64,000 nucleotides of DNA, taken from the NCBI GenBank assembly GCA_021776735.1, contig JAJFFH010000049.1, positions 5,523 through 69,522 of the forward strand. Direction: 5' to 3'. Position 1 is the stretch's first letter. Each line of letters starts with the position of its first letter. Source of the DNA: Planctomycetota bacterium. Lineage in GTDB: Bacteria > Planctomycetota > PLA2. Positions 5,144 through 53,436 of the stretch are shown piece after piece. Both the position numbers and the translations under genes were made by a program. The notes below the pieces were generated by a model. That model searched no databases. It was not told where the DNA came from and worked only from the letters and a program-made list of their open reading frames with translations.

Positions 5144-5897
5144 CTAACCCTTGCCCTTCTTGTCCCAGTCCTTGGTCCCGTTGTCCTTGAGCCAAGCCTC
5201 CCACGCCGCGGAGCTGTTCAGCTTTTCGCCGGTCAACGCGGTCAGGGTCTCGCCGAACGCGGGCTTGCAGATCTTGTAGCGCTTCATCTGCGCGGAATCC
5301 GCGGCCTTGCCGCCGGCGGCGAGCTCCACGCGCTTGAACTGCTTGGCGAGACCTTTCGCGATGATCTTGCGCCATTTCAGGGAGAGGGTCGGGAATTGGC
5401 CGCACGCGCGGATCGCGGCGGCGGCCACGTCCGGATCCTTGGAGATGCCGGTCATCTTCAGGAGGACCGGGGCTGCGTGGTTCGAGCCGCACTTGGCGAG
5501 CGCGTCGATGATGCCGACCTTCTGCGCGGCGGGGCGCTTGGCCTTGAAGCGCGTCATCAGTTTCGTGCGGCCCGTCTTGCCGCCCGCCGCGAGCATGCGG
5601 GCCGTTGCATTCAGGAACGCGGTGTCCAGGTCGTACTTCTTGCTGTACGCGCGATCGAGTTCGAACACGATCCGTATCTGGGCCTTCCTGCTCGCCTTGG
5701 GCAGGTGCTTCTTGATGCGCTCCTCGATGCTGCTCATGCTGCCGCTCGACATGCCGAGCACATGCCGGCGGAATTCGACGATCGCCCCCCATGCCTGGCG
5801 GGTGTCGGCCGGGCCGGCCGTGGCGATGGGGGTCCAGAGGAGCAGAATCCAAAAGACAAGGAGGGGGGCGGGGGCGGCGAGGCGGATGCGCTTCACG
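5144..5897 (-). CDS. Secreted HEAT-repeat protein (hypothetical)
   Basis: Signal peptide (V)KRIRLAAPAPLLVFWILLLWTPIATA. HEAT-like repeats VGIIDALAKCGSNHAAPVLL...DPDVAAAAIRACGQF. The N-terminal part of ORF 5144..6274 is antisense junk. Confidence 0.6.
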
Positions 5898-6969
5898 ATG
5901 ATCCTCCCGGAAGCAGAACGTGGTCGGTGCGTGGGCAGTACAGGTACCACGCACTGCCGGTGCTGATCAGCGTGACCTTGATCGCCGTCTTTCCGTCGGT
6001 GGTCTTCAGGTGCACCGTGGCCTTGGCCCACAGTCCGTGGTGGTCGATTTCCTTGACCGAGAACGACTTGACGAGCGGTCCGACGAGGGTCGCGTCCTTT
6101 TGGGCGGCCTCGCGAAAGCTCGTGAGCGCCTCGTAGGCGCCGCCGGTTCCGCGCAGGATCGGCGAGTACGACGCCCAAAACGCCTTGCGAAACTCGTGCA
6201 GGTTGATCAGGCGCCCGGTGCCGCAGCACTCCTCGCACTCCGTGCCGTCCGAGAACTTGCCTTCGCCGCGACACAGGGCGTGGCGGGCGGCGATCTTTTT
6301 GCGCGCTCCCAGCCAGCTCTTGATGCGGGCGCGGATTCGGCGACCGTCGCGCTTTTGCGTGCGCGCGGTGTCCTCGTCGTCCGGCGGCTCCGGCGCGTCC
6401 AGGTCCAGGGCGACGGGTACCGCGGGCGGCTTGCCCGCGTCAAACGAAACCGCGGCCACAATCTCGTTCGCGACGTCGTCCGGATCCGGCGGATTCGCAG
6501 CGTGGTCGGACTTGTCCTCGCGCGGCTCTTTCTTCGGGCCGGGTTCGGGCTTCGGCTCTTGTTTCGGGTCGGGCTTTGCGGGCTCCGGTTGGCCGCCGGA
6601 GTTTTTTCGCGCCTGCACTTTCTTGTGCTGTTTGAGCCAGAACAGGTGGGCGCGCATCTTGAACGCGTGGCGGGATGCGAGCGAGAGCCGCGCGCGAATC
6701 CCGGCGTGTTCCTCGATCTCAAGTGCCTTTTCAAACTGCGCGAGGCCCGCGTCGTACTTGGCGACGATCGTCTTGACCAGCGCCAGGCGTTCGTCGCCCT
6801 CGGGTTCGTCGAGAATCAGCTTCTTCCAGAGCTGATGCCCCTCCCGGCACAGCGCGACGCCCTTGTCGGTGAGTTTTTTGGCCTTCGGACCGAGCTCGCC
6901 CGCATAACCGGCGACCGCAACGATCCCCAGGAGCACGCCCGCCCGGAGGGCACGAATTCCCCATTGCAT
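5893..6969 (-). CDS. Secreted hypothetical protein with Cys-rich zinc-ribbon-like segment
   Basis: 358 aa. Signal peptide MQWGIRALRAGVLLGIVAVAGYA. Cys-rich segment CRGEGKFSDGTECEECCGTGRL. Pro/Lys-rich linker. Last gene of a sigma/anti-sigma operon. Confidence 0.65.
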   Translation of the reverse strand: MQWGIRALRAGVLLGIVAVAGYAGELGPKAKKLTDKGVALCREGHQLWKKLILDEPEGDERLALVKTIVAKYDAGLAQFEKALEIEEHAGIRARLSLASRHAFKMRAHLFWLKQHKKVQARKNSGGQPEPAKPDPKQEPKPEPGPKKEPREDKSDHAANPPDPDDVANEIVAAVSFDAGKPPAVPVALDLDAPEPPDDEDTARTQKRDGRRIRARIKSWLGARKKIAARHALCRGEGKFSDGTECEECCGTGRLINLHEFRKAFWASYSPILRGTGGAYEALTSFREAAQKDATLVGPLVKSFSVKEIDHHGLWAKATVHLKTTDGKTAIKVTLISTGSAWYLYCPRTDHVLLPGGSS

Positions 6970-7060: not shown

Positions 7061-7312
7061 TCAGCTTGCGTCGGGGCCGTTCTCGGGGGCGTGCGCCTCA
7101 AGCAGAAGATCGATCTCTTCGCGGCACTCCGAACACACCCGCAGGTGCTGGGCGACCACGCAGAGCGTTTCGGGCAGGTCGTCCGGCCCGGCGGCGACCG
7201 CCTCGACGAACGCGGCCGCGCGGGCGAGCATCTCGTCGCAGTCGATTTCGTGCGCGGCGGTGTCGGCGACGAGCCGCGCCAGTTCGGCGAGTTGTTCGTC
7301 GGTCAGCATCAT
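7061..7312 (-). CDS. Zinc-finger (HxxxCxxC, ZAS-type) anti-sigma factor
   Basis: 83 aa. HLRVCSECREEIDLL motif. 4-nt overlap with the upstream ECF sigma gene. Confidence 0.75.
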   Translation of the reverse strand: MMLTDEQLAELARLVADTAAHEIDCDEMLARAAAFVEAVAAGPDDLPETLCVVAQHLRVCSECREEIDLLLEAHAPENGPDAS

Positions 7313-8037
7313 CGTTTCCGGTCTCCTCGCATCGGCGTTGAAGCCGTGTCCAGGAGCGTGCCCACACCCGTCGCGTCAAAACCGCTGCGCTCCAGTGCGG
7401 TGCGGAGTTTCTTGCGCGCGTCGTGGCCGACTTTGTAGACCGCGTTGGGTTTCGTATCGAGGCGCTCGGCCAGGCGTGTCAGCGGAATACCCGCCAGCTC
7501 GCCCAGGACGACGTGGCGCTGACGCTCGGTCAGTTCCGTGTCGATCGCATGACGCAATGCGGCGAACAGTTCGTTGCGTTCGACGCCTTGACCGGCCTTG
7601 TCCGGTTCCACCAGCGCGGCGTCCACCAGGGGTCCATCGAATTGGGCGAGTTGCGCGCTCGTGCGTTCGACGGACCAGCGGCGCTTGCGCAGCTCGGTGA
7701 GCGCGACGCGAATTGCCACGGCGGTGGCCCATGTCGAGAAACGCGCGTCCCCGCGAAACGAATCGAGTGACGCGAGGATGCGCAGGCACGCGTCCTGCGT
7801 GAAATCGTCGAGATCGGCAGCGGACACGTTGCCTCGTGGCCCGAGTACCACGCCGAGTTTTCGGCGGACGAGCCGGTGCAGCTCCGTGACCGCGGCGTTG
7901 TCGCCGGATGCAAGGTCCGCGATCCAATCGGGTTCGTGCCCAAGCGGCGCCACGTCGTGATCGTAGGCGCTGGCCCGGTGTGCCGACAAGAAAACCGAAA
8001 AAAGCAAACGGACGGCGAGGTAAGAGGCGGCACGCAA
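7309..8037 (-). CDS. ECF RNA polymerase sigma factor (start codon uncertain)
   Basis: Region 2 (LDDFTQDACLRILASLDSF) and region 4 (ERQRHVVLGELAGIPLTRLAERLDTKPNAVYKVGHDARKKL). The 5' end contains a dispersed-motif copy (8003..8020). Confidence 0.85.
   Translation of the reverse strand: MRAASYLAVRLLFSVFLSAHRASAYDHDVAPLGHEPDWIADLASGDNAAVTELHRLVRRKLGVVLGPRGNVSAADLDDFTQDACLRILASLDSFRGDARFSTWATAVAIRVALTELRKRRWSVERTSAQLAQFDGPLVDAALVEPDKAGQGVERNELFAALRHAIDTELTERQRHVVLGELAGIPLTRLAERLDTKPNAVYKVGHDARKKLRTALERSGFDATGVGTLLDTASTPMRGDRKR
8003..8020 (-). repeat. Dispersed motif copy at the 5' end of the ECF sigma gene
   Basis: AGCAAACGGACGGCGAGG preceded by CCGAAAAA. Confidence 0.6.
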
Positions 8038-8097
8038 GACGCGTCAAGGGGGCGGCAGGCACGAGTCAGCCTGCATGGATCGCAATCAGGAGACACC

Positions 8098-10309: not shown

Positions 10310-13300
10310 TTACGACGACGGGTTGCGCGTAATCAGGGCGCGGAGATCCATGACCAGACGGAAGAAGGTCGGGATGACGAACAGCGTGAAGACCGTGGAT
10401 ACGACGAGGCCGCCGAGCAAGACGCTGCCGAGGCCGCGGTACAGTTCGCTGCCGGCGCCGGGAAACAGTACGAGGGGTAGGAGGCCGAACACCGTCGTGC
10501 ACATCGTCATGAAAATCGGGCGGATGCGCGTGCCGACGGCTTTGGGGATGGCGTCTTGTGGGCTCAGGTTTTCCTGGCGGATGTATTGGAGTGCCTGGTG
10601 CACGATCAGGATCGCGTTGTTGACGACCGTGCCGATCAGGATGACGAAGCCGAGCATCGTCAGGACATCGAGGGGCTGGTTCACGAAGCGGTTCAGGGTC
10701 CATAGGCCCAGGAATCCACCGACGGCGCCGAGGGGGACCGTCAGCAGAATCACGACCGGGTACAGCCACGATTCGAACAACGCGGCCATGAGCAGGTAGG
10801 TGATCAGGAGGGCGAGCGCGACGTTGAAGCGCAGCGCTTCCCACGTGGCGTCGAGTTTGTCCGCGGTGCCCGAGAGTGCGATGCGGTAGCCGCCGGTCAA
10901 TGCGCCTTGCTCCTGGAGCGGGCCGACGATGTCTCGCCGGATGCGGTCCATCGCGTCTTCGAGCGGCATCGCCGGCGGTGGGGAGACTTCGATCGTGACC
11001 GCGCGCTGTCGTTCGCGGTGGTTGATCTGTTCGGGGCCGCTATTGAGGACCACGTTGGCGATCGCGCGCAGCGGTACGACCGGGCCCTCGGGTGTCGCGA
11101 TCGGAAGATCCTCGAGGTCTTGCAGGTGCGCGGCGAAACGCTTCGCGCCCACCAGCGTGATGTCGATCTTGTTCGCTCCCTCGAAGTAGTCGCCCGCGTA
11201 CGCTCCGTCCACGAGCGAGTCCACGGCGTACCCGAGATCAGCGGCATTCACGCCCAGCGCGGCGGCGCGGTCCCAGCGCGGCAAGACATGCACCTCGGGA
11301 CTCGACAGGTCGAGGCTTGGCACCGGCCGCTGCTGCGCGCCCGGAATACTGCCCGCGACCATGCCCATGACGCGCCCGCCGAGGCCGACGAGTTGCGGCA
11401 GTTCAGCGCCTGTGATCTCGATGTCGATCGTGCGGCCGGCGGTCAGTCCCTGCTCGAACAGGCTCGATTGTTTGGCGACCGCAAACGTGCCGGGTAGGCC
11501 GAACCCGATCCGTTGGATGAGCGGCACCAGTTCGCCGCAGCGCAGTGGGTCGATGGCGCGCACGCCCAAAAACACCGAGCGGCCACGGGCGACAAAAAAG
11601 AAGTCCCGGATCGCGGGATAGTCGAGGTCGTCGAGTTTCGGGTCGTCGGGATCGATGTCCCAGTACGGCTTCATCGCCGTCTCGATCCGCTCGCCGAGCG
11701 CGACCAGCTCGTCGAGGTTGTAGCCCGGCGGCGGCAAGATGATGCCGAACACCAGGTTGCGGTTGCCTGTCGGCAGGTACTCCACCTTGGGAAAGAGCCG
11801 GAAAGTGCCCCAAACGGCGGCGGCCGCAAGGAGCGCGACCGATACGACCTGGCGGATTCGGCCGGCCTGCAGCCAGGCGTTGCCGCGGACGATGAATTGG
11901 TGGATCACGTTGCCAAAAGCGCGGGCGGGCCAGGTCAGCACCGACAGCCACCGAGGCGCGGGACGATCGCGGTGTTCCGAGCGCGGCAGAACCCGCGCGG
12001 CGGTTGTCGGAATCAGCGTGACGGAGACGATCAGCGAGAGGCCGACAGAGAACGAGATCGCCAGGGCGATGTCGCGAAAGAGTTGTCCGGCTTCTTCTTG
12101 CACGAACAGGACCGGCAAGAACACGGCCAGGGTCGTCAGTGTGGAAGCGACGACGGCGCCCCAGACCTCGCGCGTGCCATCGATGGCCGCGGCGACACGC
12201 CGCTTGCCTCCCTGATAGTGGCGATAGATGTTTTCGAGGACCACGATGGCGTTGTCGACCAGCATGCCGACTGCGAACGCGAGGCCGGCGAGGCTGATGA
12301 CGTTGAGCGAGCGGCCCATCAGGTGCAGCAGCAGGAACGTGCCGATGATGCTCGTCGGGATCGCGAGGGCGATGATGAGCGTCGAGCGGCCGCTGCGCAA
12401 AAACAGCAGCAAGACGAGAATCGTGAGCGAACCACCGAGCAGGATGTTGCGCTGCACCAGCCCGACCGCGGAGTGGATGTAGTCGGTCTCGTCGTACACC
12501 TGTTCAAGCTGGAGACCGCGACTCTTCAGGACTCCCTCGTCGAGTTCGCGCAGGGCCGTGCGCAGCCCTTCCATCACATCCATCACGTTCGCGCCCGTCT
12601 CGCGCTGGGCGTTGATCGCGATACACGTCGCCCCGAAGTTGCGCACGGTGCCGTCCGCTTTCTTGAAGCCGACGCGTACGGTCGCGACATTGCGCAGGTA
12701 CACCGTGCCGGCCTCGCCGCGACGGACGACGACACCCTCGACCTCCTCCGGAGAGCGAAAGCGCCCGAGAGTGCGCACGACGTAGCGGCGCTTGCCTTCC
12801 CAGTAGTCGCCGCCCGAAGTGTCGCGGTTGCGACCTTGGAGTGCGCTTCGAACGTCCTCGATTGTCAGTCCGCGGCCCGCGAGGCGCTGGGGATCGACAA
12901 CGACCTGCAGTTCGCGCTCGCGACCGCCGAGCACGTTGCTGTTGGCCACCCCCTTGACCCGTTCCAGCCGCGCCTCGATCACGTCCTCGGCGAACTTGCG
13001 CAGTTTTTGGACCGAAACATCGGGCGGTTGGAGTGGGGCGAGCTCCGCGTCTTTCTCGATGGCGCCCAGCAGGCGGCGGTAGGCGAGACCGGTGTTGTGC
13101 GCGCGCAAGACGGGCGCGAGCGCGTCCTTTTTGTCCGGGTGCTCCTTGAGAAACGCACCGAGAGCCGCCTTGTCGGTCATGCGGGGGCGCAGGATGAACC
13201 ACGCGATCGGCCGATCACCGGAATTCGCCGTCGTGAGCACAGGTTCGTCGGCTTCCGCCGGATACTCGCGCACCTGCTGGAGCCGTGCGTTGACCTTGAG

Positions 13301-13651
13301 CAGGGCCGCACCCATGTCCGTGCCGACCGCGAACTCCATGACCACGCGGCCGGTCGAATCCATGCATTCGCCGGTCATCTTGCGCACGCCTTCGACGCCC
13401 TTGAGCTGCTCCTCCTGCTCCTGGACGATCTCGCGCTCGATCTCCTGCGGGCTCGCCCCGGGCCACCGCGTCTCGATGGTGATCGTCGGCGTCTGCACCT
13501 CGGGCGTGAGCTGCATCGGCATCCGGTCGAGCGCAATCAGCCCGAACAGGCAAGCGAGCAAGACACCGACGGCGACCTTGACCGGGTTGCGCACGATGGC
13601 GCCGACCAGTCCGGTGGATACGGGTGTCTCGCGAGCGGCGTCTTGTTGCAT
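10310..13651 (-). CDS. RND efflux transporter permease (AcrB/CzcA superfamily)
   Basis: 1113 aa with 12-TM RND architecture. Conserved blocks such as AIPTSIIGTF, VGMLVDNAIVVLENI and LGTVVNNAILIV. Confidence 0.95.
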   Translation of the reverse strand: MQQDAARETPVSTGLVGAIVRNPVKVAVGVLLACLFGLIALDRMPMQLTPEVQTPTITIETRWPGASPQEIEREIVQEQEEQLKGVEGVRKMTGECMDSTGRVVMEFAVGTDMGAALLKVNARLQQVREYPAEADEPVLTTANSGDRPIAWFILRPRMTDKAALGAFLKEHPDKKDALAPVLRAHNTGLAYRRLLGAIEKDAELAPLQPPDVSVQKLRKFAEDVIEARLERVKGVANSNVLGGRERELQVVVDPQRLAGRGLTIEDVRSALQGRNRDTSGGDYWEGKRRYVVRTLGRFRSPEEVEGVVVRRGEAGTVYLRNVATVRVGFKKADGTVRNFGATCIAINAQRETGANVMDVMEGLRTALRELDEGVLKSRGLQLEQVYDETDYIHSAVGLVQRNILLGGSLTILVLLLFLRSGRSTLIIALAIPTSIIGTFLLLHLMGRSLNVISLAGLAFAVGMLVDNAIVVLENIYRHYQGGKRRVAAAIDGTREVWGAVVASTLTTLAVFLPVLFVQEEAGQLFRDIALAISFSVGLSLIVSVTLIPTTAARVLPRSEHRDRPAPRWLSVLTWPARAFGNVIHQFIVRGNAWLQAGRIRQVVSVALLAAAAVWGTFRLFPKVEYLPTGNRNLVFGIILPPPGYNLDELVALGERIETAMKPYWDIDPDDPKLDDLDYPAIRDFFFVARGRSVFLGVRAIDPLRCGELVPLIQRIGFGLPGTFAVAKQSSLFEQGLTAGRTIDIEITGAELPQLVGLGGRVMGMVAGSIPGAQQRPVPSLDLSSPEVHVLPRWDRAAALGVNAADLGYAVDSLVDGAYAGDYFEGANKIDITLVGAKRFAAHLQDLEDLPIATPEGPVVPLRAIANVVLNSGPEQINHRERQRAVTIEVSPPPAMPLEDAMDRIRRDIVGPLQEQGALTGGYRIALSGTADKLDATWEALRFNVALALLITYLLMAALFESWLYPVVILLTVPLGAVGGFLGLWTLNRFVNQPLDVLTMLGFVILIGTVVNNAILIVHQALQYIRQENLSPQDAIPKAVGTRIRPIFMTMCTTVFGLLPLVLFPGAGSELYRGLGSVLLGGLVVSTVFTLFVIPTFFRLVMDLRALITRNPSS

Positions 13652-13663
13652 CGGGTGCGCCCG

Positions 13664-14884
13664 CTAGCGATCCACGAAACGGACCATCGGGGTTCCGCGC
13701 AGCCGTTCGTTGCCGCGGACAACCACCTTGGCCCCGGCCGTGAGGCCGCCTGCGATCTCGACCATGTTGCCGACCGCAAGTCCGAGAACGACGGGCGTCG
13801 GCCGTGCGGTCATGGTCTTTTCGTCCACGACCCACACAAGGGGCCGAGGCCCGCCGAGCGAGAGCGCATCCTTGGGCACCAATATCGCCGTCCGTTTGCT
13901 TCCCCGGTCGATGTGTACTCGCGCCAACATGCCCGCCTTGAGCAGCGGCTGGTTGTCTCTCACCGAGTTGCGGAGGCGCAGCTTGACGGGGAACGTGCGC
14001 GCGCGTTCATCGCCCTGCGGCACGATGGCAATGAGCTTGGCCTGGAACGGTCGACTCGGCAGTGCGTCGATCGTGACGGGAACGACGAGGCCCGGTTTCA
14101 GGTCGCCGACGAAGTCTTCGATGACGTGGACGACGATGTCCACCTCGTCGAGAGCGGCCAGAACAGCCACGGATTCGCCGGTGCCGAGCCAGTGGCCGAC
14201 TTCGGTGCGTTCCTCGATGATCCAGCCGGCGAAGGGCGGCTTGATCGTGTGACGGCGTTTGTCGCTTTCGAGGCGGGCGACTTCGGCGGCCTGGGCGTCG
14301 AGACGGGCGCTGGCCTGTTCGATGCGCTCTTTGCGCGTGCCGGCGAGCAGGAGCGCGAGGGACGCCTCTTGTTGTTTCAGGCGCTGGGCGGCGACGCGAG
14401 CGAGGAGGCGCGCATCCTGCACTTCATCTTCGGTGACCGTCTTGTCGGCAAAGAGCCGCTCCGCCGTGTCGCGCTTCCACTCGCGGGTCTTGACTTCGGC
14501 CTGGGCCTGGCCGACCTGCGCTCGGCCGACCGCCAGCTCCTCCTCGCGCGTTCCGTTCTTTGCTTCGGCGAGTTCGTGCTCGCGCAGGCGGGCGACGGCG
14601 CGCGCCGCGGCGAGGCGGCTGTCGATGGTTGCGGTCCGGAGCTTCGCGAGCGTGTCTTCGGGGGTGACGCGGCGCCCCGCGCGTGCCGAAAACTCGATGA
14701 CCTGTCCCTCGACCTCGCTTCCGAGCACGGCGATCCGTGTCGGGCGTACCGTGCCGACGAATGCACGCCGCGCCGCGACCGGTCGACTTTCGGCGACGGC
14801 AACCACGACGGGTACTCCGCGTGCGGGGCTCTGGCCGGGTGCGAGCCGGGCGAGAAGCCCAAGAATCAGCAGGCAGCGAGTGGT
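13664..14884 (-). CDS. RND efflux periplasmic adaptor (membrane fusion protein, HlyD family)
   Basis: Signal/TM MTTRCLLILGLLARLA. Coiled-coil region and beta-barrel motifs. Ends 12 nt before the RND gene. Confidence 0.9.
   Translation of the reverse strand, partial: TTRCLLILGLLARLAPGQSPARGVPVVVAVAESRPVAARRAFVGTVRPTRIAVLGSEVEGQVIEFSARAGRRVTPEDTLAKLRTATIDSRLAAARAVARLREHELAEAKNGTREEELAVGRAQVGQAQAEVKTREWKRDTAERLFADKTVTEDEVQDARLLARVAAQRLKQQEASLALLLAGTRKERIEQASARLDAQAAEVARLESDKRRHTIKPPFAGWIIEERTEVGHWLGTGESVAVLAALDEVDIVVHVIEDFVGDLKPGLVVPVTIDALPSRPFQAKLIAIVPQGDERARTFPVKLRLRNSVRDNQPLLKAGMLARVHIDRGSKRTAILVPKDALSLGGPRPLVWVVDEKTMTARPTPVVLGLAVGNMVEIAGGLTAGAKVVVRGNERLRGTPMVRFVDR
13882..13900 (+). repeat. 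Dispersed motif copy inside the MFP coding sequence (antisense to motif; encodes S-K-R-T-A-I-L)
   Basis: ATATCGCCGTCCGTTTGCT. Confidence 0.7.
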
Positions 14885-14993
14885 CATGCGGCGTCCTTCC
14901 GCGGACCATGGTAGCGACGCCGTCAACGCCGTTGCCGCGGCGGATGCCGAATCTTGAAACGCGGGGGGATGTTGCTCCGTCTACCCTGCACTC

Positions 14994-17900
14994 ATGGACG
15001 ACGCGCCCGAGGTGGAAGCTCTGCTGGCCCATGGCCGCTTTCTTCGTGCTCTTGCGCGCGACATTCTGCGCGACGCGCATCAGGCGGAGGACGTCGTGCA
15101 GGAGGCGTGGTTACGCGCCAGGAATCGAGCGCCGCGCAAGGCCGGAGCGATGCGGGCATGGCTCGCGCGCATCGTGCGCAATCTGGCGCTCGATCGGGTC
15201 CGCGCGGAACAGGCGAGGCGCCAGCGGGAAGTAGCCGTGGGCCGGGCAGCCGTGCGTCAGGGACGGACGGCGATGTCTGTGCCGCCGCCGGATGTGGCCG
15301 CACGGTTCGAGGTGCAAAAACGCACCGCCGACGCCGTTCTGGATCTTCCCGAGCCGTATCGATCGACGATCCTGATGCGGTACTTCGAAGACCTCGCGCC
15401 CCGAGAGATTGCGCGGCGGGTCGGCGTGCCGGGCGCGACCGTGCGCACGCGTGTCCGGCGCGGCCTGGCGATGTTGCGCAAGGCGCTGGACGAACGGTAT
15501 GGCCGGCGCGCGTGGCCCGCACTACTGGTCGTGGGAGGAGGCGTGATGGCGAAACTCAAGGGAGCGGCTGTTGTTGCCGCCGTTCTGGCTGTGATTGCGT
15601 TGACCGTGTGGCGGGTGCGGGCGGACCCGGAGCGGACCCGCGGACGTTCCTCGGAGGGGCGCCGGGCCGCCTCGACATCATCCGGATTGACGTTGGCAGA
15701 CAGCGCCGGCGACACGGTGTCGCATCGGTCGCGTCGCATCCTGAGCGGCGTCGTTCTCGAGACGTCCGGCCGACCCGCGTCCGGGGCCGTCGTCCGCTGG
15801 CGGCTGCGGCAGCCCGACCTCGGTTGGCAGCCCTTTCGGCATTCCGCTTTGCACAGCGGCTCGGCGACGTGTGACGACGCCGGGCGATTTCGGCTCTCGG
15901 TAGATCGTCGTGCCGGATCCCTGTCCGCAGTCAAGGACGGCGATGTCTCTCCGGACTGGGAGGTCGGAACCGGCGATCCCGGCGCTGGCCTGGTGCTGCA
16001 CCTGCGTACACCTGTTTCGGTCGTGATCAGGGTGATTGAAAATCGCGATCGACCCGTCACCGGCGCCCAGGTTCGCGTGGCGCCAACTCTGCTCGGTCCC
16101 TTCGCCGGCGACGTGCACGACGGGGCGACGGATTCGAGCGGTCGCGTGCGGATCGCAGGAGTGCAGCCCGGGTTCGCGTCGGTCGTCGTTCGTGCCGCTG
16201 GGTATGTGACGGCGGTGCGGCGTGCCGTGCGATTGCCCGGGAATGACGTCGTCGTTCGTCTGCGTCGGGGCCGTCCATTCTTTGGCATTGTCTGCGATGC
16301 CGGCGCCGTGCCGGTACAAGACGCTCGTGTGCGTTGGGTCTCGGCGCATGAACACGCCCTGGGCGGTGAGCAGCGCACCGACGCCGGGGGGCGGTTCTTG
16401 GTTCCCGCGCTACCGGCTGGGAGGATCGCGTTTTTCGTGGAGGCCGGTGCGACAGGGCAGGCGTATCACGTCTGTGCGCGGCCGGCGGGCCGGAGCGTGG
16501 GGGAGCGGCAACGATTCGCGCTGGATCCGCCCGTCGGGCTCGAGGGGCGCGTGTGGATGGGCGAGAAGAGCGCGCGGCGGCCGCTGGTGGGAATCCCGGT
16601 ACGGGTTTCCGGCGCCGAGTTTTTTCATGTGACGAACCGCGGCACGTTCGGTGTTCGCGTCATTCGTTTCGGGTCTCTATCGCGGCGAGCCGTCACGGAC
16701 GCCGACGGTCGTTTTGCATTCGCCGGACTTTCGCACCGGGCCACGCAACTCAGCCTTGCGCCGCCGTTCTACGTTGTGAAGCGGCTTGCCGGCGGCGACG
16801 TGCAGGCGGCGCGTGCGGGCCGGGTGCACGGGACCGTTCGCGACGAAGCTGGTCGTCCGGTCGCCGGCGCGGTCGTCTTGCGTCCCGGCGGCGAGGGTTA
16901 TCGCAACATCACCAACGCCAAGGGACAGTATGAATTGTCCCTTGTTCCGGGGGCGAAACGGGCCGTGCGTCTCGACGTGTTCAAAGACGGATTCACGCGC
17001 GTGCAGCGAGGCGTCTCGTCGGCCGGAGCGATCGACTTTCGGTTGGCGCGAGTGTCTTCGATCGACGGCCGCGTTGTATCCGCCGCCGGGCGGCCTATTC
17101 TCGGCGTGAAGGTCGGACCCGTGCGCAACACGGTCTTCACCGATCGCGATGGTCGGTTTCGTTTCTTCCGAAGCCCGGAAACGACCAGCGTCCCGTTCGT
17201 CCACGAATCCTACGAGTATCGGAGCGTGGAGCTTTCGGACGAAGCGACAGTCGTGCTCTCGCCGGCCCCGGTCCGTGTCTTCGTCCGGGGGCGGGTTCTG
17301 GACACGAAGGGAGAGCCGATCGGAGAAGCGGACGTGACCTGGCGATCCGAAGGGAGGCACGAGGCTGCCATAACCGACGGCCGCGGCCGTTTCGAGCTCG
17401 GCCTCGCGGCGGGTGCCTGGACCGTCGTGGTCGAACGCGACGGCTACGCTCCGTGGCGGCGCGAGGATGTCGATGTGCCGCGGGCCGAGCTCCTGGAGAT
17501 CATCGTGCGATCGGGCTCGTCGATTGCCGGTCGCGTCGTGGACGCAGGGGGCGCCGCCGTCGCGGGAGCGACCGTGATCGTTTCTGGTCCCCGCGACGCT
17601 GGCAAGGCACGAAACTGGCGCGCGACGACCGGTGTGGACGGCGGCTTTCACGTGGACGATCTGCCCCATGGACAGTTCGCGGTCATTGCCGCCGGCCCGA
17701 GCTCGGCGGCCGGCCACGACCGGGCTCATGACGTAGCTGCGGACACGGTCGACCTGGAGCTGCGTTTTGCCGCGTCTCGAGCACTGAGCGGCCGCGTGTT
17801 CGATCCGGATGGCCGGCCGTGGCCGGGCGTCGGGATCGTCGTGCGCGTCACCGACGCGGACTTGCGGCGGCACCGACTGCGACGTGATCGTGTCAGCGCG

Positions 17901-18380
17901 GTAACGGACGGTGACGGCCGCTTTCACGTCAAGGGGCTCCACGGTACCCACGCCACGATCGCAGTTGACACGAATCGCGGCTCACGCGCGGAGACCTACA
18001 TGCAGCAGGATCTGCGCGTGGAGCCGGGACAGCGCGACATCGAGATTCGGGTGCGGACCGAACGGACGATCACCGGTCGCGTGCTGGATCCGAAGGGGGC
18101 GCCTGTCGCTGGCGTATGGGTCTCGATCACAGATGTCGCGACCAGCAGCGGCGCGCGGCTGACCACGGACGGCGATGGGCGGTTCCGATTCCATGGCCGG
18201 AGTCGGGCGACCTACGAGTTTTCCGCGTCCGCCCGCCGCATTCCGTTTGGCCCCGGCATGTGGGGCTTCGCGTGGGCAGGCAAAACGACCGCCGGTGCCG
18301 GGACGAATTCGGTGACGGTCGCGTTGCAGGTGGATCAAAACGCGGTTCGGATGGCGGAGCGCGCCCGCCGTGGCCGGTGA
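14994..18380 (+). CDS. ECF sigma factor fused in frame to a TM helix and about 900 aa of CarboxypepD_reg-like repeats
   Basis: N-terminal 180 aa carry sigma region 2 (EDVVQEAWLRA) and region 4 (LDLPEPYRSTILMRYFEDLAPREIARRVGVPGATVRTRVRRGLAMLRKAL). This is followed by TM helix MAKLKGAAVVAAVLAVIALTVW. Then come repeated GRVVDAGGAAVAGATVIVSGP / GRVLDPKGAPVAGVWVSI / TDGDGRFRF units. There is no stop codon between the parts. Confidence 0.8.
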   Translation: MDDAPEVEALLAHGRFLRALARDILRDAHQAEDVVQEAWLRARNRAPRKAGAMRAWLARIVRNLALDRVRAEQARRQREVAVGRAAVRQGRTAMSVPPPDVAARFEVQKRTADAVLDLPEPYRSTILMRYFEDLAPREIARRVGVPGATVRTRVRRGLAMLRKALDERYGRRAWPALLVVGGGVMAKLKGAAVVAAVLAVIALTVWRVRADPERTRGRSSEGRRAASTSSGLTLADSAGDTVSHRSRRILSGVVLETSGRPASGAVVRWRLRQPDLGWQPFRHSALHSGSATCDDAGRFRLSVDRRAGSLSAVKDGDVSPDWEVGTGDPGAGLVLHLRTPVSVVIRVIENRDRPVTGAQVRVAPTLLGPFAGDVHDGATDSSGRVRIAGVQPGFASVVVRAAGYVTAVRRAVRLPGNDVVVRLRRGRPFFGIVCDAGAVPVQDARVRWVSAHEHALGGEQRTDAGGRFLVPALPAGRIAFFVEAGATGQAYHVCARPAGRSVGERQRFALDPPVGLEGRVWMGEKSARRPLVGIPVRVSGAEFFHVTNRGTFGVRVIRFGSLSRRAVTDADGRFAFAGLSHRATQLSLAPPFYVVKRLAGGDVQAARAGRVHGTVRDEAGRPVAGAVVLRPGGEGYRNITNAKGQYELSLVPGAKRAVRLDVFKDGFTRVQRGVSSAGAIDFRLARVSSIDGRVVSAAGRPILGVKVGPVRNTVFTDRDGRFRFFRSPETTSVPFVHESYEYRSVELSDEATVVLSPAPVRVFVRGRVLDTKGEPIGEADVTWRSEGRHEAAITDGRGRFELGLAAGAWTVVVERDGYAPWRREDVDVPRAELLEIIVRSGSSIAGRVVDAGGAAVAGATVIVSGPRDAGKARNWRATTGVDGGFHVDDLPHGQFAVIAAGPSSAAGHDRAHDVAADTVDLELRFAASRALSGRVFDPDGRPWPGVGIVVRVTDADLRRHRLRRDRVSAVTDGDGRFHVKGLHGTHATIAVDTNRGSRAETYMQQDLRVEPGQRDIEIRVRTERTITGRVLDPKGAPVAGVWVSITDVATSSGARLTTDGDGRFRFHGRSRATYEFSASARRIPFGPGMWGFAWAGKTTAGAGTNSVTVALQVDQNAVRMAERARRGR
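15261..15278 (-). repeat. Dispersed motif copy inside the sigma-fusion gene linker (encodes G-R-T-A-M-S)
   Basis: GGACGGACGGCGATGTCT. Confidence 0.65.
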
Positions 18381-18404
18381 CCCGCCCTGCGGCGCCGGCG
18401 CTTT

Positions 18405-19304
18405 CTACCTGCTCAAGTGGCGTAGCGCGAAACGGCAGGCCTCGAGCAGCGGCTCGTCTTGGGTCTCCGCCGCATACGGGCCGACGGTCGCGGTGTGACT
18501 CAGCGCCCGAAACCGTGCGCGCCGACGCGTGTTGTCGTCGACTGAGCCGTACGCGTCGAACAGTCTGTCCCGCGCGGTCGCGGGCAGCAACACATACGCG
18601 ATCATCAGATCGACGGCCGGGTCGCCCCGATGGACGTCGCCCCAGTCGATGACGCCGGACAGGGCCGCGTTCTCGTCGAGGATGATGTGGCGTGCGTACA
18701 GGTCGCCGTGGCAGAGAACGCCCGGACCGTCAAAGGGCATGAGCCCCTTGGCCAGCGGACGATACTCGTCTTCGTTGTCGATCAGTCCCACACGAGTGAG
18801 CTCGGCGAGCTGATCCGGAATCCGGGCCGTTCTTTTGGCCAAGTCCATGCGCCCGATCACGTCACCGGGCAGACCGGCGTCGAAGTCGAGGCCATGCAGC
18901 ACCCCTAAAAAATGTCCGAGCGGCGCCGCCAGGGCAGCCCGTGCCGACTCGTCGAACGGGACGCGGCAGGCGGTCTCGCCCGGCACGAGCGAGTAACCGG
19001 CGAACGGCCACGGGTCGTCGCCGGCGGGCGGCGCGAGATAGCGCGGCTCGGGTATGCGGACGGGCAGCGTCGCCGCCAGGGCATTGAGCACACGGCGCTC
19101 GAGTGCAACGACCTCGGCCCCGAACGGACGCCGCGGAAACCGGAAGACGTATTTGTCATCGACCAGGAAACAGGTGTTGTCCCAACCGGCCCCGAGCAGC
19201 ACAACGGTGTCGGCTCGCACTTCGGGCAGGCGGGCGTGCAAGAGCGTCCGTGCGCCGTCGGCGTCGAGGGTGCGTTGCGGTTCCCACTTCTGCACGGGAG
19301 TCAT
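18405..19304 (-). CDS. Phosphotransferase (APH/choline-kinase-like kinase family)
   Basis: HGDLYARHIILDENAALSGVIDWGDVHRGDPAVDLM is the Brenner/APH motif. Start taken at MTPVQKW. Confidence 0.8.
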   Translation of the reverse strand: MTPVQKWEPQRTLDADGARTLLHARLPEVRADTVVLLGAGWDNTCFLVDDKYVFRFPRRPFGAEVVALERRVLNALAATLPVRIPEPRYLAPPAGDDPWPFAGYSLVPGETACRVPFDESARAALAAPLGHFLGVLHGLDFDAGLPGDVIGRMDLAKRTARIPDQLAELTRVGLIDNEDEYRPLAKGLMPFDGPGVLCHGDLYARHIILDENAALSGVIDWGDVHRGDPAVDLMIAYVLLPATARDRLFDAYGSVDDNTRRRARFRALSHTATVGPYAAETQDEPLLEACRFALRHLSR

Positions 19305-19331
19305 CGTAGCGACGACTGATAGTCTCTGGGC

Positions 19332-20405
19332 GTGAACCAACGAGAGCAAGACGCCGTCCTCGGAGCGCTCACGGCCGATGCCGCCGCACTCGGGCTGCAT
19401 TGGATCTATGACACGGCGCGCATTCGCGATGTCGTCGGCTCCGGGGCTCCGGAATTCGTCACGCCCGACATCGACAACTATCGCAAGACCCAGGCGTACT
19501 TTGCGCATGCAGGCAAGCGCGTCGGCGACTCGTCGCATTACGGCGCGCAGGCGATGGTCGCCCTGCGATCGCTATGTGCTTGCGACGGAGCACTCGACAT
19601 CGCGGACTACGACCGGCGCTACGTCGCGGCCTTCGGGCCCGGCGGAACGTGGGTCGGTTACATCGACTATGCGACCCGCGAGACGCTGCACGCGATCGAC
19701 GCCGCCGGACGCGCCGCACTCGAGGCCGCGCGTGACTTCGATCTCGGCGAGCACGAGAACGAACGCGCGCTGATCCAAGCGAAAGTCATGGCCAACGCGG
19801 GCCGTTGGCAGGGCCCGGAACTCGACCGGGCGATGGAACGCGCGGTCCACATCACCCACCCCGGCAACGCCGCGCTCGTGAGGACGGCGCAGGCGATGGC
19901 GCACTCGGTGGTGAAGGCGCGAGCCGGACCCCATGGTTCGGACGACGTGCAGTTGCCGGCAGTGAGTAGTCTGCCGGCCCTGGGCGCGGCCCTCGACGCC
20001 GCCCGTGTGGAGTCCGCCGTTCGGATCACACATCACAACGACGAGGCGGTGCGCTGGGCCGAGACCTGTGCCGCGATGCTGCGCGCGGCGCACGCGGGCG
20101 CGACATGCCGGGAAGTCGCCGAGGCGGCGGACCAGCCGGCGTTCGAGGAGTACGCCACGGCCGCCGAGGCCGTCCAGAAACACGGGACCGCCTGCAACCT
20201 TGACGCCGCCGTGCCGCTGATGACCGTGCTCTTGCGCGACGCCGCGGACTTCAAAAGCACGATCCGCCAAAACATCCTGCTCGGCGGGGATTCCTCGGGT
20301 CGCGGCATCCTGCTCGGCGCGGTGCTCGCGCTCTGTTTCGGGGTTCCGGACGACTGGCTGAAAAGGACCCACGCCGCCCGCGAAGCCGAACGTTTGTTCG
20401 CGTAG
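19332..20405 (+). CDS. ADP-ribosylglycohydrolase family protein
   Basis: GALTADAAALGLHWIYD...SHYGAQAM...GGDSSGRGILLGAV are family motifs. Confidence 0.85.
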   Translation: MNQREQDAVLGALTADAAALGLHWIYDTARIRDVVGSGAPEFVTPDIDNYRKTQAYFAHAGKRVGDSSHYGAQAMVALRSLCACDGALDIADYDRRYVAAFGPGGTWVGYIDYATRETLHAIDAAGRAALEAARDFDLGEHENERALIQAKVMANAGRWQGPELDRAMERAVHITHPGNAALVRTAQAMAHSVVKARAGPHGSDDVQLPAVSSLPALGAALDAARVESAVRITHHNDEAVRWAETCAAMLRAAHAGATCREVAEAADQPAFEEYATAAEAVQKHGTACNLDAAVPLMTVLLRDAADFKSTIRQNILLGGDSSGRGILLGAVLALCFGVPDDWLKRTHAAREAERLFA

Positions 20406-40440: not shown

Positions 40441-40557
40441 CGATTGCTCCCGTCCCTAGGCTGCCAGCCCGGCGCGCTCGCTGCGGATCGTTGTGGATGA
40501 GGCCTGCCGGGCAGTCTAGCCGGGACCGTGCACTGAGGTCAACGGAGCGGCCTTGCG

Positions 40558-42969: not shown

Positions 42970-42970
42970 C

Positions 42971-49246: not shown

Positions 49247-49256
49247 GGTCCTGGTC

Positions 49257-53144: not shown

Positions 53145-53436
53145 GCCGCCAGTGTACGGACCCCCCAGAACCTCGCTCGATCGTGAAATCCGGGCTATGG
53201 GCGGTACAATTCTGGTCTAGTTCCTCGGGATGTGTCCGTGACCCGGCATCCCGAAGGGTTGCTGGCCTACCGGTCGATTCGGGGGCTGGCGCGCCCCATT
53301 CCACGCCTTGGTCGGACGACGTGATCGGACCATCGCGGGGGTGTTGTTCGGCGGGTCAATGACCGACCGGACTAGATATCCGGGCAGCAAAGGCTAGTTC
53401 TTGTACCGAAACTCGACGAAATCTCTCCGACTCTCA

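What the first reader, a model, noticed from the sequence alone, without database searches (positions are those of the whole stretch)
14994..18380. ECF sigma factor fused to a transmembrane helix and a 900-aa CarboxypepD_reg repeat ectodomain
One uninterrupted 1128-codon ORF carries a complete ECF sigma (regions 2 and 4). It continues into a TM helix (AAVVAAVLAVIALTVW) and about 10 carboxypeptidase-regulatory-like beta-sandwich repeats. A membrane-tethered sigma with a built-in extracytoplasmic sensor would have sigma and anti-sigma in one polypeptide. It would need proteolytic release. Such C-terminally extended ECFs are rare, and this partner domain is unusual.
Basis: partly seen in the sequence, partly recalled or inferred. 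Interest (0 to 1): 0.6.

Follow-up and report, generated by a model that had tools for sequence, protein, structure and literature searches.

The report
Membrane-tethered sigma factor with nested start
This is a real single gene that joins a bacterial transcription switch (an ECF sigma factor) through one membrane-spanning helix to a long outside chain of ten beta-sandwich domains; it belongs to a very large, uncharacterised family, mostly from Planctomycetota, and carries a conserved internal ribosome-binding site and start codon that probably also yield a second, sigma-less protein from the same gene.

Summary
ORF 14994-18380 (+, 1128 aa) encodes ECF sigma regions 2 and 4, one TM helix (residues 190-206) and ten CarboxypepD_reg repeats. 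It is not a frameshift artefact: one coding frame runs throughout, and an independent assembly gives the identical protein.

The fusion is the rule in a huge family. 12,043 cluster representatives score E<=1e-30, about 90% of the best 150 exceed 400 aa, and 40 of 43 sampled carry CarboxypepD_reg. So the architecture is neither rare nor an unusual pairing. There is no anti-sigma domain between sigma-4 and the membrane, so "sigma plus anti-sigma" is not shown. The closest tested analogue is IutY, a tethered sigma released by Prc and RseP.

The new finding is an in-frame internal initiation signal just before the TM helix, GGGAGGAGG-N4-ATG (15533-15548). It is conserved at nucleotide level across 22 homologous loci:
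- The codon is always ATG, GTG or TTG (P ~1e-6 for the non-Met cases).
- An SD core is present in 15 of 22, against a 7.9% background (p ~1e-11).
- Local RNA structure is reduced.

Best reading: two nested products, a tethered sigma and a sigma-less anchored ectodomain. Release by proteolysis and the short isoform's role are inferred, not shown. I rate it a new variant of a known kind, interest about 0.6.

The parts
14956..14981 (+). Candidate ECF-type promoter GAAAC-N17-CGTC, 12 nt upstream of the long-isoform ATG (weak, unproven)
   Evidence: The pattern gives 4 matches in the window against 2.7 expected. A comparable motif sits upstream of only 3-5 of 20 family genes. No sigma-70-type promoter was found.
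14994..18380 (+). Long isoform ORF: ECF sigma, TM helix and 10 CarboxypepD_reg repeats (1128 aa). Its start has no Shine-Dalgarno (ccctgcactcATG).
   Evidence: Most homologous loci also lack an SD at the long-isoform start.
15027..15212 (+). Sigma region 2 (residues 12-73)
   Evidence: Pfam PF04542, E 1.1e-12. D33, Q36 and W56 are invariant in the family. AF2 pLDDT exceeds 90.
15330..15488 (+). Sigma region 4 (residues 113-165)
   Evidence: Pfam PF08281, E 6.4e-10. P121, R123 and R162 are invariant. PDB sequence hits (SigW 5wuq, SigK 4nqw and others) end at residues 165-168.
15501..15533 (+). Conserved post-sigma-4 segment GRRAWPALLVV (residues 170-180; family motif G.RR.W..AL.PL)
   Evidence: Alignments A1 and A3: R171, A177, L178 and P180 are nearly invariant, and W174 is invariant in A3. 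AF2 predicts a helix at 171-182 with low confidence. Function unknown.
15533..15541 (+). Internal Shine-Dalgarno-like GGGAGGAGG, in frame as Gly181-Gly182-Gly183 (two rare GGA codons)
   Evidence: GGAG/GAGG lies at -14..-8 in 15 of 22 family junctions against 87 of 1100 background codons (Fisher p 9e-12). It is always in frame as GGA-Gnn. Bona fide gene starts in this window use the same SD type.
15546..18380 (+). Proposed short isoform ORF (944 aa): Met185, n-region AKLK, TM helix, ectodomain, no sigma
   Evidence: The codon at this position is ATG in 11, GTG in 9 and TTG in 2 of 22 loci, and never a non-start codon. In 138 representatives it is about 85% Met and about 10% Val. Local RNA structure is reduced, mean percentile 0.88, p 1.8e-5.
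15561..15611 (+). Single transmembrane helix (Gly190-Trp206)
   Evidence: Hydropathy peak at 188-206. AF2 helix at 191-209. A single TM helix lies at residues 185-260 in most homologs.
15612..15740 (+). Arg/Ser-rich juxtamembrane linker (residues 207-249), a candidate site-1 cleavage region
   Evidence: Composition is 10 Arg and 8 Ser in 44 residues. Codon-position GC is atypical here. There is no Pfam domain.
15741..18323 (+). Array of ten CarboxypepD_reg (transthyretin-like beta-sandwich) repeats. Repeat starts are at nt 15741, 16014, 16278, 16539, 16824, 17061, 17283, 17523, 17784 and 18069.
   Evidence: Pfam PF13620, E 5.7e-79, 10 stretches. There is no PDB sequence relative at E<=1e-3.

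Best explanation
The gene belongs to a very large family, mostly from Planctomycetota. In this family an ECF sigma factor is tethered by a short linker and one TM helix to an extracytoplasmic array of CarboxypepD_reg beta-sandwich domains, with no anti-sigma domain.

I propose that it makes two nested products. The long isoform (1128 aa, from ATG 14994, which has no SD) is a type II membrane protein with its sigma domain held at the cytoplasmic face of the membrane. By analogy with IutY, that sigma is inactive until the ectodomain is clipped and a site-2 protease cuts in or near the TM helix, which frees sigma to bind RNA polymerase. The short isoform (944 aa, from the strong internal SD plus ATG at 15533-15548) is the same anchor and ectodomain without sigma. 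It is probably the more abundant product and most likely associates or competes with the long form outside the membrane, setting when the long form is cleaved.

Shown here: the architecture, its conservation, and nucleotide-level conservation of the internal initiation signal. Inferred: topology, proteolytic release, actual production of the short isoform, and its role.
For: - Architecture and a single coding frame. The identical protein appears in an independent assembly.
- The fusion is the rule. More than 100 fused homolog clusters exist. Intact loci are fused in Planctomycetota MAGs, in Saltatorellus ferox Poly30, and in Haliangium- and Brocadiaceae-labelled MAGs. The exhaustive profile search gives 12,043 representatives at E<=1e-30. 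Its best 150 all match sigma, junction and TM, and 127 of the 142 new ones are >=400 aa. 40 of 43 sampled carry CarboxypepD_reg.
- No anti-sigma domain.
- Internal start. All 22 junctions have ATG, GTG or TTG. For the 11 non-Met cases P = 10^-6.4 from each ORF's own codon usage. SD is present in 15 of 22 against 7.9% background, p = 9e-12, always in frame as the minority codon GGA followed by G.
- Prospective test. Six new loci were chosen only because the protein shows V, L or A at that position. All six carry GTG or TTG there (in L164, GTG lies one codon upstream of the aligned column, which is Ala), and five of six carry GGAG.
- A HEAT-type member also has the SD and ATG.
- Protein-level echo in 138 representatives: Met about 85%, Val about 10%, Gly at -4 in 73%, and G-initial codons (A/V/G) at -3 in 81%.
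- RNA around the site is less structured than the rest of the ORF.
- The organism uses GGAGG/AGGAG at ordinary gene starts, while the long-isoform starts mostly lack an SD.
- Precedent for tether-only inactivation and release by RIP: IutY (PMC5411451; review PMC8999054).
Against: - There are no expression, proteomic or ribosome-profiling data, so the short isoform is inferred from sequence only.
- Seven of the 22 junctions scored, plus L168 and L170, lack a clear SD. These include the copy examined in the only cultured representative (S. ferox, L009), so internal initiation may not be universal.
- The choice of the equivalent codon in L164 and L085 involved some judgement. L088a and L088b are paralogs, so they are not independent.
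- Reduced RNA structure is partly a by-product of the Lys-rich n-region codons.
- No site-1 or site-2 protease gene was found among the roughly 20 window ORFs I annotated. Gene neighbourhood is not conserved.
- No conserved ECF promoter motif was found.
- Five Arg residues in the first 15 residues after the TM helix weaken a positive-inside topology argument.
Confidence: 0.5

Rival explanations
1. It is a plain one-product sigma/sensor hybrid. Only the full-length protein is made. The G-[GAV]-x-x-M motif is a protein-level juxtamembrane requirement, and the SD-like sequence is incidental.
For: The fused ORF is conserved. SD-like strings can arise from protein constraints: GGAGG plus GTG at 15096 is created by the conserved AEDVVQ codons of sigma-2. 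Seven of the 22 junctions scored, plus L168 and L170, lack an SD.
Against: Protein-level selection does not explain synonymous choices. The rare GGA codon (7-27% of Gly codons) is used at the -4 Gly. GTG is used for every Val and TTG for every Leu at the position. It also does not explain why Met and Val dominate over Leu, Ile, Ala and Phe.
Confidence: 0.25
2. The internal SD and start are a non-functional fossil of gene capture. In this view a duplicated sigma module landed upstream of a signal-anchored CarboxypepD_reg gene and read through into it (the Pinto et al. model for Planctomycetes), and the old ribosome-binding site has simply not yet decayed.
For: PMC7671368 proposes exactly this origin for planctomycetal C-terminal extensions. 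The sigma-to-TM spacer is hypervariable in length, 0 to about 80 aa, and low in complexity, like a translated former intergenic region. Sigma-less CarboxypepD_reg proteins with N-terminal signal sequences exist.
Against: The sigma-TM-CarboxypepD_reg unit is old and essentially monophyletic: 40 of 43 sampled members share it, and whole-protein identity falls to about 25% (sigma module about 35-48%). The SD and start nevertheless persist, always in the same codon register (15 of 15), inside an otherwise hypervariable spacer. A neutral fossil should have decayed. This model explains the origin of the signal, not its maintenance.
Confidence: 0.12
3. The tethered sigma works while still in the membrane, like ToxR or CadC, recruiting RNA polymerase to membrane-proximal DNA. 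No proteolysis is needed, and the ectodomain modulates activity allosterically or by clustering.
For: There is no anti-sigma domain and no protease gene nearby. The tether is very short in this member, the shortest of 38.
Against: In the one tested tethered sigma, IutY, every truncated variant that retains the TM helix depends on RseP for activity; only IutY-168, which lacks it, is RseP-independent (PMC5411451). A tether of about 24 residues leaves little room for a holoenzyme on DNA at the membrane. That second point is inference.
Confidence: 0.1
4. It is an assembly or sequencing artefact that fused two separate genes, a sigma gene ending at the out-of-frame TGA at 15544 and a downstream gene starting at ATG 15546.
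For: The junction reads TGATG, a classic stop/start overlap, and is preceded by an SD.
Against: The TGA is out of frame with sigma regions 2 and 4. One frame codes throughout. An independent assembly gives the same protein. Thousands of homologs are fused.
Confidence: 0.02

Closest known systems
IutY of Pseudomonas putida (sigma/anti-sigma hybrid of cell-surface signalling, ECF243; PMC5411451)
   Same: An N-terminal cytosolic ECF sigma domain is joined by a single TM helix to a large periplasmic domain, with no separate cytoplasmic anti-sigma N-tail. In IutY, all TM-containing truncated variants depend on RseP for activity, and activation involves Prc and RseP. This is the best mechanistic model for the long isoform.
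   Different: The IutY ectodomain is a FecR-type domain that receives a signal from an adjacent TonB-dependent receptor. Here the ectodomain is ten CarboxypepD_reg repeats and no receptor gene is adjacent. The papers I read describe no internal start for IutY.
Actinobacterial ECF52, ECF53 and ECF48 (for example SCO4117; PMC8999054)
   Same: ECF sigma with a C-terminal extension containing TM helices and an extracytoplasmic, carbohydrate-binding-type region. Activation by proteolysis is proposed.
   Different: Those extensions carry a zinc-finger (ZAS-like) anti-sigma segment between sigma and the membrane. Here there is no Cys at all in residues 1-214 and no such domain.
ECF57 (formerly ECF01-Gob), the planctomycetal ECFs with long C-terminal extensions (PMC8999054, PMC7826278, PMC7671368)
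   Same: Relatives come mostly from Planctomycetota, with a long C-terminal extension and no separate anti-sigma gene. No member of ECF57 has been characterised experimentally.
   Different: ECF57 is described as having a prevalence of WD40-like repeats and two conserved Cys that link sigma-2 and sigma-4. This family has CarboxypepD_reg arrays and no conserved Cys. Formal ECF-group assignment could not be run.
Bacterial genes with in-frame internal initiation giving two isoforms (CheA-L/CheA-S, ClpB, IF2, SctQ/YscQ; from my own knowledge, not checked here)
   Same: An SD and a start codon inside an ORF, in frame, give a long and an N-terminally truncated product that can interact with each other.
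   Different: None of these is a sigma factor or a membrane sensor. Here the short product would lose the entire cytoplasmic output domain and begin exactly at a signal-anchor.

Membership tests
ECF (group 4) sigma-70 factors | Sigma regions 2 and 4 only, scoring above the curated family threshold | tested here: met
   PF04542 and PF08281 hit. TIGR02937 scores 69.7 bits against a cut-off of 42.9. No sigma-3 or sigma-1 hits. The closest solved relatives are SigW, SigK, SigE and SigL.
ECF (group 4) sigma-70 factors | Directs transcription from cognate promoters (autoregulated GAAC...CGT-type promoter) | tested here: inconclusive
   GAAAC-N17-CGTC lies at 14956-14981, but the window holds 4 matches against 2.7 expected, and only 3-5 of 20 family upstream regions have a similar motif.
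Sigma/anti-sigma hybrids of cell-surface signalling (IutY-like, ECF243) | Sigma domain linked by one TM helix to a periplasmic domain | tested here: met
   A single TM helix at 190-206 lies between sigma-4 and the ectodomain.
Sigma/anti-sigma hybrids of cell-surface signalling (IutY-like, ECF243) | FecR-type periplasmic domain and an adjacent TonB-dependent receptor | tested here: not met
   No FecR-family Pfam hit at E<=1. The neighbours are an RND pump, an MFP, an APH kinase and an ADP-ribosylglycohydrolase.
Sigma/anti-sigma hybrids of cell-surface signalling (IutY-like, ECF243) | Activation by site-1 and site-2 proteolysis | not testable with these tools
   This needs protease mutants and Western blots. 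No M50 or Prc-type gene was found among the roughly 20 window ORFs I annotated.
Class I anti-sigma domain / ZAS-containing fused ECFs (ECF52, ECF53, ECF48) | A folded anti-sigma domain or HxxxCxxC zinc motif between sigma-4 and the TM helix | tested here: not met
   Only about 24 residues (166-189) lie there. There is no Cys in residues 1-214. No anti-sigma Pfam family hits. AF2 shows one short, low-confidence helix.
ECF57 (planctomycetal ECFs with C-terminal extensions) | WD40-like repeats in the extension and two conserved Cys in sigma-2 and sigma-4 | tested here: not met
   No WD40 hits. The invariant columns in A1 and A3 include no Cys.
ECF57 (planctomycetal ECFs with C-terminal extensions) | Assignment by the ECF Hub group HMMs | not testable with these tools
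   The group HMMs are not available here, and the supplement of PMC7826278 is not held.
CarboxypepD_reg (PF13620) repeat proteins | Repeated matches above the gathering threshold | tested here: met
   261 bits against a cut-off of 32.3, in 10 stretches.
Genes with in-frame internal translation initiation (two nested isoforms) | A conserved SD and start codon inside the ORF, in frame | tested here: met
Genes with in-frame internal translation initiation (two nested isoforms) | The short product is detected in cells | not testable with these tools
   This requires Western blotting, N-terminomics or initiation-site ribosome profiling.

The most novel reading that the evidence does not exclude
One gene encodes a complete, self-contained signalling pair. 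The long product is the membrane-tethered sigma. The short product, made from the conserved internal ribosome-binding site, is its sigma-less twin and acts in trans as the regulator. It would be the functional stand-in for an anti-sigma factor, for example by co-assembling with the long form's ectodomain and shielding it from the site-1 protease. Alternatively the short product is the abundant envelope protein whose integrity the rare long form reports. This would be a nested-gene solution to sigma/anti-sigma stoichiometry, used by thousands of genes, mostly in Planctomycetota.
Probability: 0.3. Interest if true: 0.8.

Novelty: new variant of a known kind. Interest (0 to 1): 0.6.

Why it matters
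In the reviews I read (PMC8999054, PMC7826278), no planctomycetal ECF sigma factor with a C-terminal extension is described as experimentally characterised. Yet these proteins are among the most expanded regulators in that phylum.

This work defines one very large, coherent family: sigma, TM helix and CarboxypepD_reg array. It shows that the family has no anti-sigma domain. It also finds a nucleotide-level signal, an internal SD and start codon, that predicts a second protein from the same gene.

If confirmed, this would be, as far as I know, the first sigma factor gene with a nested sigma-less isoform. It gives a concrete, cheap experiment (tagging plus synonymous SD and start mutations), for example in a cultivable planctomycete such as Saltatorellus ferox. 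It also warns annotators that the pre-TM G-[GAV]-x-x-M motif is a translated ribosome-binding site.

Tried and rejected
1. Sequencing artefact or two genes: rejected.
2. L012 as a natural split: rejected. The break lies inside sigma-4 and the rest continues in another frame through the TM helix and ectodomain.
3. The sigma-only search for unfused orthologs returned short proteins. Inspection showed contig-end fragments or frameshifted tails, not clean stops.
4. ECF promoter motif upstream of family genes: inconclusive. It appears in 3-5 of 20 loci and is not enriched in the window.
5. The sigma-70 promoter and terminator scan around the 5' end, the internal start and the 3' end found nothing useful.
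6. Conserved gene neighbourhood or partner protease: none seen.
7. Paralogs of either half elsewhere in the window: none.
8. The first alignment (A1) was too divergent for the locus search.
9. Cluster look-ups gave no organism names. The taxonomy of the window is therefore only inferred from labelled relatives.
10. Literature searches for this architecture or for internal initiation in sigma/anti-sigma genes found nothing specific. The supplement of the ECF reclassification paper is not held.
11. SD-driven translational pausing as an explanation for the internal SD: considered and set aside, because it does not explain the start-codon constraint.
12. A cleavable signal peptide (VRA|D after the TM helix): the motif is not conserved in homologs, so a signal-anchor is assumed. 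This was not tested.


Full report

Yes. The ORF listing returns a 1128-aa ORF at 14994..18380 on the + strand.
- Pfam finds Sigma70_r2 (residues 12-73), Sigma70_r4_2 (113-161) and CarboxypepD_reg in 10 stretches (E 5.7e-79).
- NCBIfam's general ECF model TIGR02937 passes its cut-off, 69.7 against 42.9 bits.
- A hydropathy scan gives one TM segment, 188-206. AlphaFold2 on the N-terminal module gives confident sigma-2 and sigma-4 (mean pLDDT 86) and a helix at 191-209.
- The ten repeats begin at residues 250, 341, 429, 516, 611, 690, 764, 844, 931 and 1026.

ORF length alone is not evidence in this ~69% GC DNA. An 1133-aa shadow ORF runs antisense to the neighbouring efflux genes. The domain statistics are decisive.

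**2. Is the fusion an artefact?**

No.
- Codon-position GC keeps the same frame across the whole ORF.
- The sigma part and the TM/ectodomain part are read in the same frame.
- A separately assembled Logan contig from run SRR15505515 encodes the identical protein.

The junction did deserve attention. It reads GGGAGGAGG CG TGATG GCG AAA CTC AAG (15533-15557). That is an SD-like run, an out-of-frame TGA overlapping an in-frame ATG, and then MAKLK followed by a hydrophobic helix, which looks like the N-terminus of a signal-anchored protein.

**3. Ortholog architecture**

- A full-length search found more than 100 distinct clusters with Sigma70_r2, r4_2 and CarboxypepD_reg in one 700-1450 aa protein. 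Where they are named, they come from Planctomycetota MAGs.
- A sigma-module alignment used as a query recovered intact fused genes in further Planctomycetota MAGs, in the cultured Saltatorellus ferox Poly30 (1098 aa), and in MAGs labelled Haliangium and Brocadiaceae. It also recovered them in metagenome contigs, including one contig with two tandem copies.
- An exhaustive HMMER search of 1.84 billion representatives with the N-module profile gave 12,043 proteins at E<=1e-30. The best 150 (E 1e-72 to 1e-81) all match sigma, junction and TM. Of the 142 new ones, 127 are >=400 aa and 113 are >=700 aa.
- An every-third subsample of these representatives, chosen without regard to ectodomain, showed CarboxypepD_reg in 40 of 43.
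- Minor variants replace the array with LRR or HEAT repeats, or add a C-terminal PDZ domain.

I found no clean natural split.
- L012 is broken inside sigma-4 and continues in another frame through the TM helix and ectodomain.
- The short top hits of a sigma-only search are contig-end fragments or run into out-of-frame Arg/Gly-rich tails.

"Rare" and "unusual partner" are also wrong, because this is the standard architecture of a very large family.

**4. Anatomy of the conserved N-module (alignments A1 and A3)**

The order is:
1. sigma-2 (D33, Q36, W56 invariant)
2. linker
3. sigma-4 (P121, R123, R162 invariant)
4. G.RR.W..AL.PL
5. a hypervariable, low-complexity spacer of 0 to about 80 aa
6. 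G-[GAV]-x-x-M-x-x-K-x-K
7. TM helix
8. Trp

The window protein has the shortest spacer of the 38 aligned, so sigma-4 ends only about 24 residues before the membrane.

Nothing resembles an anti-sigma domain.
- No anti-sigma Pfam family hits at E<=1.
- There is no Cys in residues 1-214.
- PDB relatives (SigW, SigK, SigE, SigL and others) stop aligning at residue 165-168.
- AF2 gives only a low-confidence helix at 171-182 and disorder at 182-189.

"Sigma and anti-sigma in one polypeptide" is therefore not demonstrated.

**5. The internal initiation signal**

Reading the junctions as DNA showed that the Gly four residues before the conserved Met is usually encoded by the minority codon GGA followed by G. 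This gives GGAG 8-12 nt upstream of the in-frame ATG.

Where the protein has Val or Leu instead of Met, the codon is GTG or TTG. I then fetched six further loci, chosen only because their proteins show V, L or A at that position. All six carry GTG (five) or TTG (one) there. Five of the six have GGAG, GGAGG or GGAGGAG upstream.

Over 22 junctions:
- The codon is ATG in 11, GTG in 9 and TTG in 2, and never a non-start codon.
- For the 11 non-Met cases, the probability from each ORF's own codon usage is 10^-6.4.
- An SD core lies at -14..-8 in 15 of 22, against 87 of 1100 (7.9%) at other in-frame start-capable codons in the same ORFs (Fisher p = 9e-12).
- All 15 SD cores are in the same codon register, GGA-Gnn. 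This explains the protein motif G-[GAV].

Caveats: L088a and L088b are paralogs, and the choice of codon in L164 and L085 involved some judgement.

Further observations:
- A HEAT-type member also has GGAGGTGGAG before its ATG. One LRR member and one other member do not.
- In 138 representatives from the exhaustive search, the position is about 85% Met and about 10% Val. ATG and GTG differ by one transition and both are start codons. Other hydrophobic residues are rare there. Gly is at -4 in 73%, and A, V or G at -3 in 81%.
- The RNA from -25 to +20 around the site is less structured than elsewhere in the same ORFs. The mean percentile is 0.88 and Wilcoxon p is 1.8e-5. This is partly a consequence of the Lys codons.
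- Ordinary genes in the window use GGAGG or AGGAG at their 5' ends, for example at 8569, 22265, 25340, 42971 and 60787.
- The long-isoform start here and in most homologs has no SD.

Protein-level selection cannot explain these synonymous choices. Translational pausing at SD-like sites cannot explain the start-codon constraint.

**6. Mechanism**

Shown: the architecture, its conservation, the absence of an anti-sigma domain, and the conserved internal SD and start.

Inferred:
- *Topology.* The sigma domain must be cytoplasmic. CarboxypepD_reg arrays are otherwise found on secreted or envelope proteins, and sigma-less relatives carry N-terminal signal sequences. The protein is therefore N-in and C-out. 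The five Arg residues just after the helix weaken the charge argument.
- *Release.* The long isoform is inactive while tethered and is released by regulated intramembrane proteolysis. In IutY, a sigma joined to a TM helix without a cytoplasmic anti-sigma tail, all truncated variants that keep the TM helix depend on RseP for activity. Only the variant that lacks the TM helix (IutY-168) is RseP-independent (PMC5411451; review PMC8999054). The Arg/Ser-rich linker 207-249 is a plausible site-1 target.
- *Short isoform.* A 944-aa sigma-less product is made from Met185 and is probably more abundant, given its SD. It most likely modulates cleavage of the long form by associating or competing with it outside the membrane.

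What the ectodomain senses is unknown. An array of ten beta-sandwich domains would form a long stalk that could span the enlarged planctomycetal periplasm. This is an inference from general knowledge.

**7. Surroundings**

- Divergently upstream lie an MFP (13664-14926, -) and an AcrB-type RND pump (10310-13651, -).
- Convergently downstream lies an APH-family kinase (18405-19538, -), whose stop is 24 bp from the stop of this gene.
- Next come an ADP-ribosylglycohydrolase, an FG-GAP protein and an aldehyde:ferredoxin oxidoreductase.
- A second ECF-like sigma lies at 7309-8043 (-).
- I found no protease that could carry out RIP among the roughly 20 window ORFs I annotated.
- Neighbourhoods of homologs are not conserved. 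This agrees with PMC7671368.
- A candidate ECF promoter (GAAAC-N17-CGTC, 14956-14981) is not supported statistically or by conservation.

**8. Comparison with what is known**

Fused ECF sigmas with transmembrane extensions are a known kind: IutY/ECF243, SCO4117/ECF52, ECF48, ECF53 and planctomycetal ECF57. Pinto et al. describe a planctomycetal ECF clade with diverse C-terminal extensions and propose an origin by duplication and read-through into downstream genes.

This family differs in four ways:
- It has no anti-sigma or zinc-finger segment.
- It has no FecR domain and no adjacent receptor.
- It has no WD40 repeats and no conserved Cys pair.
- It has a CarboxypepD_reg array as its canonical ectodomain.

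I found no paper describing this architecture or an internal start in any sigma or anti-sigma gene. Formal ECF-group assignment could not be done.

The Pinto model nicely explains the origin of the junction: the spacer would be a former intergenic region, and the SD and Met the former start of the downstream gene. It does not explain why the signal persists across a family that has diverged to about 25% whole-protein identity.

**9. Verdict**

- The gene is an ordinary member of a large, experimentally uncharacterised family. The nested internal start is new and testable.
- Novelty: a new variant of a known kind.
- Confidence in the full two-isoform, proteolytic-release model: about 0.5.
- Confidence that it is a genuine fused gene: above 0.95.
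- Interest: 0.6.

Noticed in passing
window 11513-14914 (+): An 1133-aa ORF lies antisense to the real RND pump and MFP genes. It has codon-position GC 0.83/0.46/0.72, the mirror image of a real gene. It is a shadow ORF and a reminder that kilobase ORFs arise by chance in this GC-rich DNA.
   Followed up: partly
window 7309-8043 (-) and 5144-6439 (-): A second ECF-like sigma (Sigma70_r2 hit only, E 3e-12) lies upstream of a 431-aa ORF with no Pfam match. That ORF has an internal GGAGG plus GTG at 5896. It may be another sigma/partner pair, or its start may be mis-set.
   Followed up: no
window 40537-42969 (+), with 42839-44275, 46899-48464 (-), 48089-49552 (-), 51372-53216 (-): An STT3/AglB-type oligosaccharyltransferase (STT3 N-terminal domain plus AglB_L1) sits in a cluster with a Bac_transf initiating transferase, a Wzy_C-like protein and GT1, GT4 and GT2 glycosyltransferases. 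This looks like a protein N-glycosylation-type locus in a bacterial genome.
   Followed up: no
L088 (metagenome contig Ga0126377_10020742, 5402 bp): Two tandem, near-identical fused sigma-TM-ectodomain genes lie on one contig. Both have GGAGG plus GTG at the junction, which indicates a recent duplication of the whole unit.
   Followed up: partly
L012 4201-7490; proteins P0123, P0128, P0129: Several family copies are disrupted by frameshifts, either inside sigma-4 or just after sigma-4 or the TM helix. These may be pseudogenes or assembly errors. None shows a clean stop between sigma and the TM helix.
   Followed up: partly
proteins P0015, P0023, P0044, P0065 (L164 601-4044): Some family members end in a PDZ domain after the CarboxypepD_reg array. 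PDZ domains sense C-termini in the DegS and RseP pathways, which hints that the ectodomain does take part in proteolytic signalling.
   Followed up: no
L166 3821-4371 (-); L165 1-351 (-): One homolog has a convergent neighbour with Asp_protease_2 and PDZ domains. Another has a divergent sigma-less CarboxypepD_reg protein. These are isolated cases and not conserved.
   Followed up: no
L170 1784-4291 (protein P0109): A HEAT-repeat member of the same sigma-TM family comes from the same sequencing run (SRR15505515) as the window gene. It may be a paralog in the same organism. Its junction has an ATG but no SD.
   Followed up: partly
window 15086-15098: GGAGG followed by an in-frame GTG occurs inside sigma-2, created by the conserved AEDVVQ codons. 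This is a natural example of an SD-like string produced by protein constraint, and it is useful as a negative control for the junction signal.
   Followed up: partly
window 18378-18407: The stop of the sigma gene (18380) and the stop of the convergent APH-family kinase gene (18405) are only 24 bp apart. No terminator-like hairpin lies between them.
   Followed up: partly
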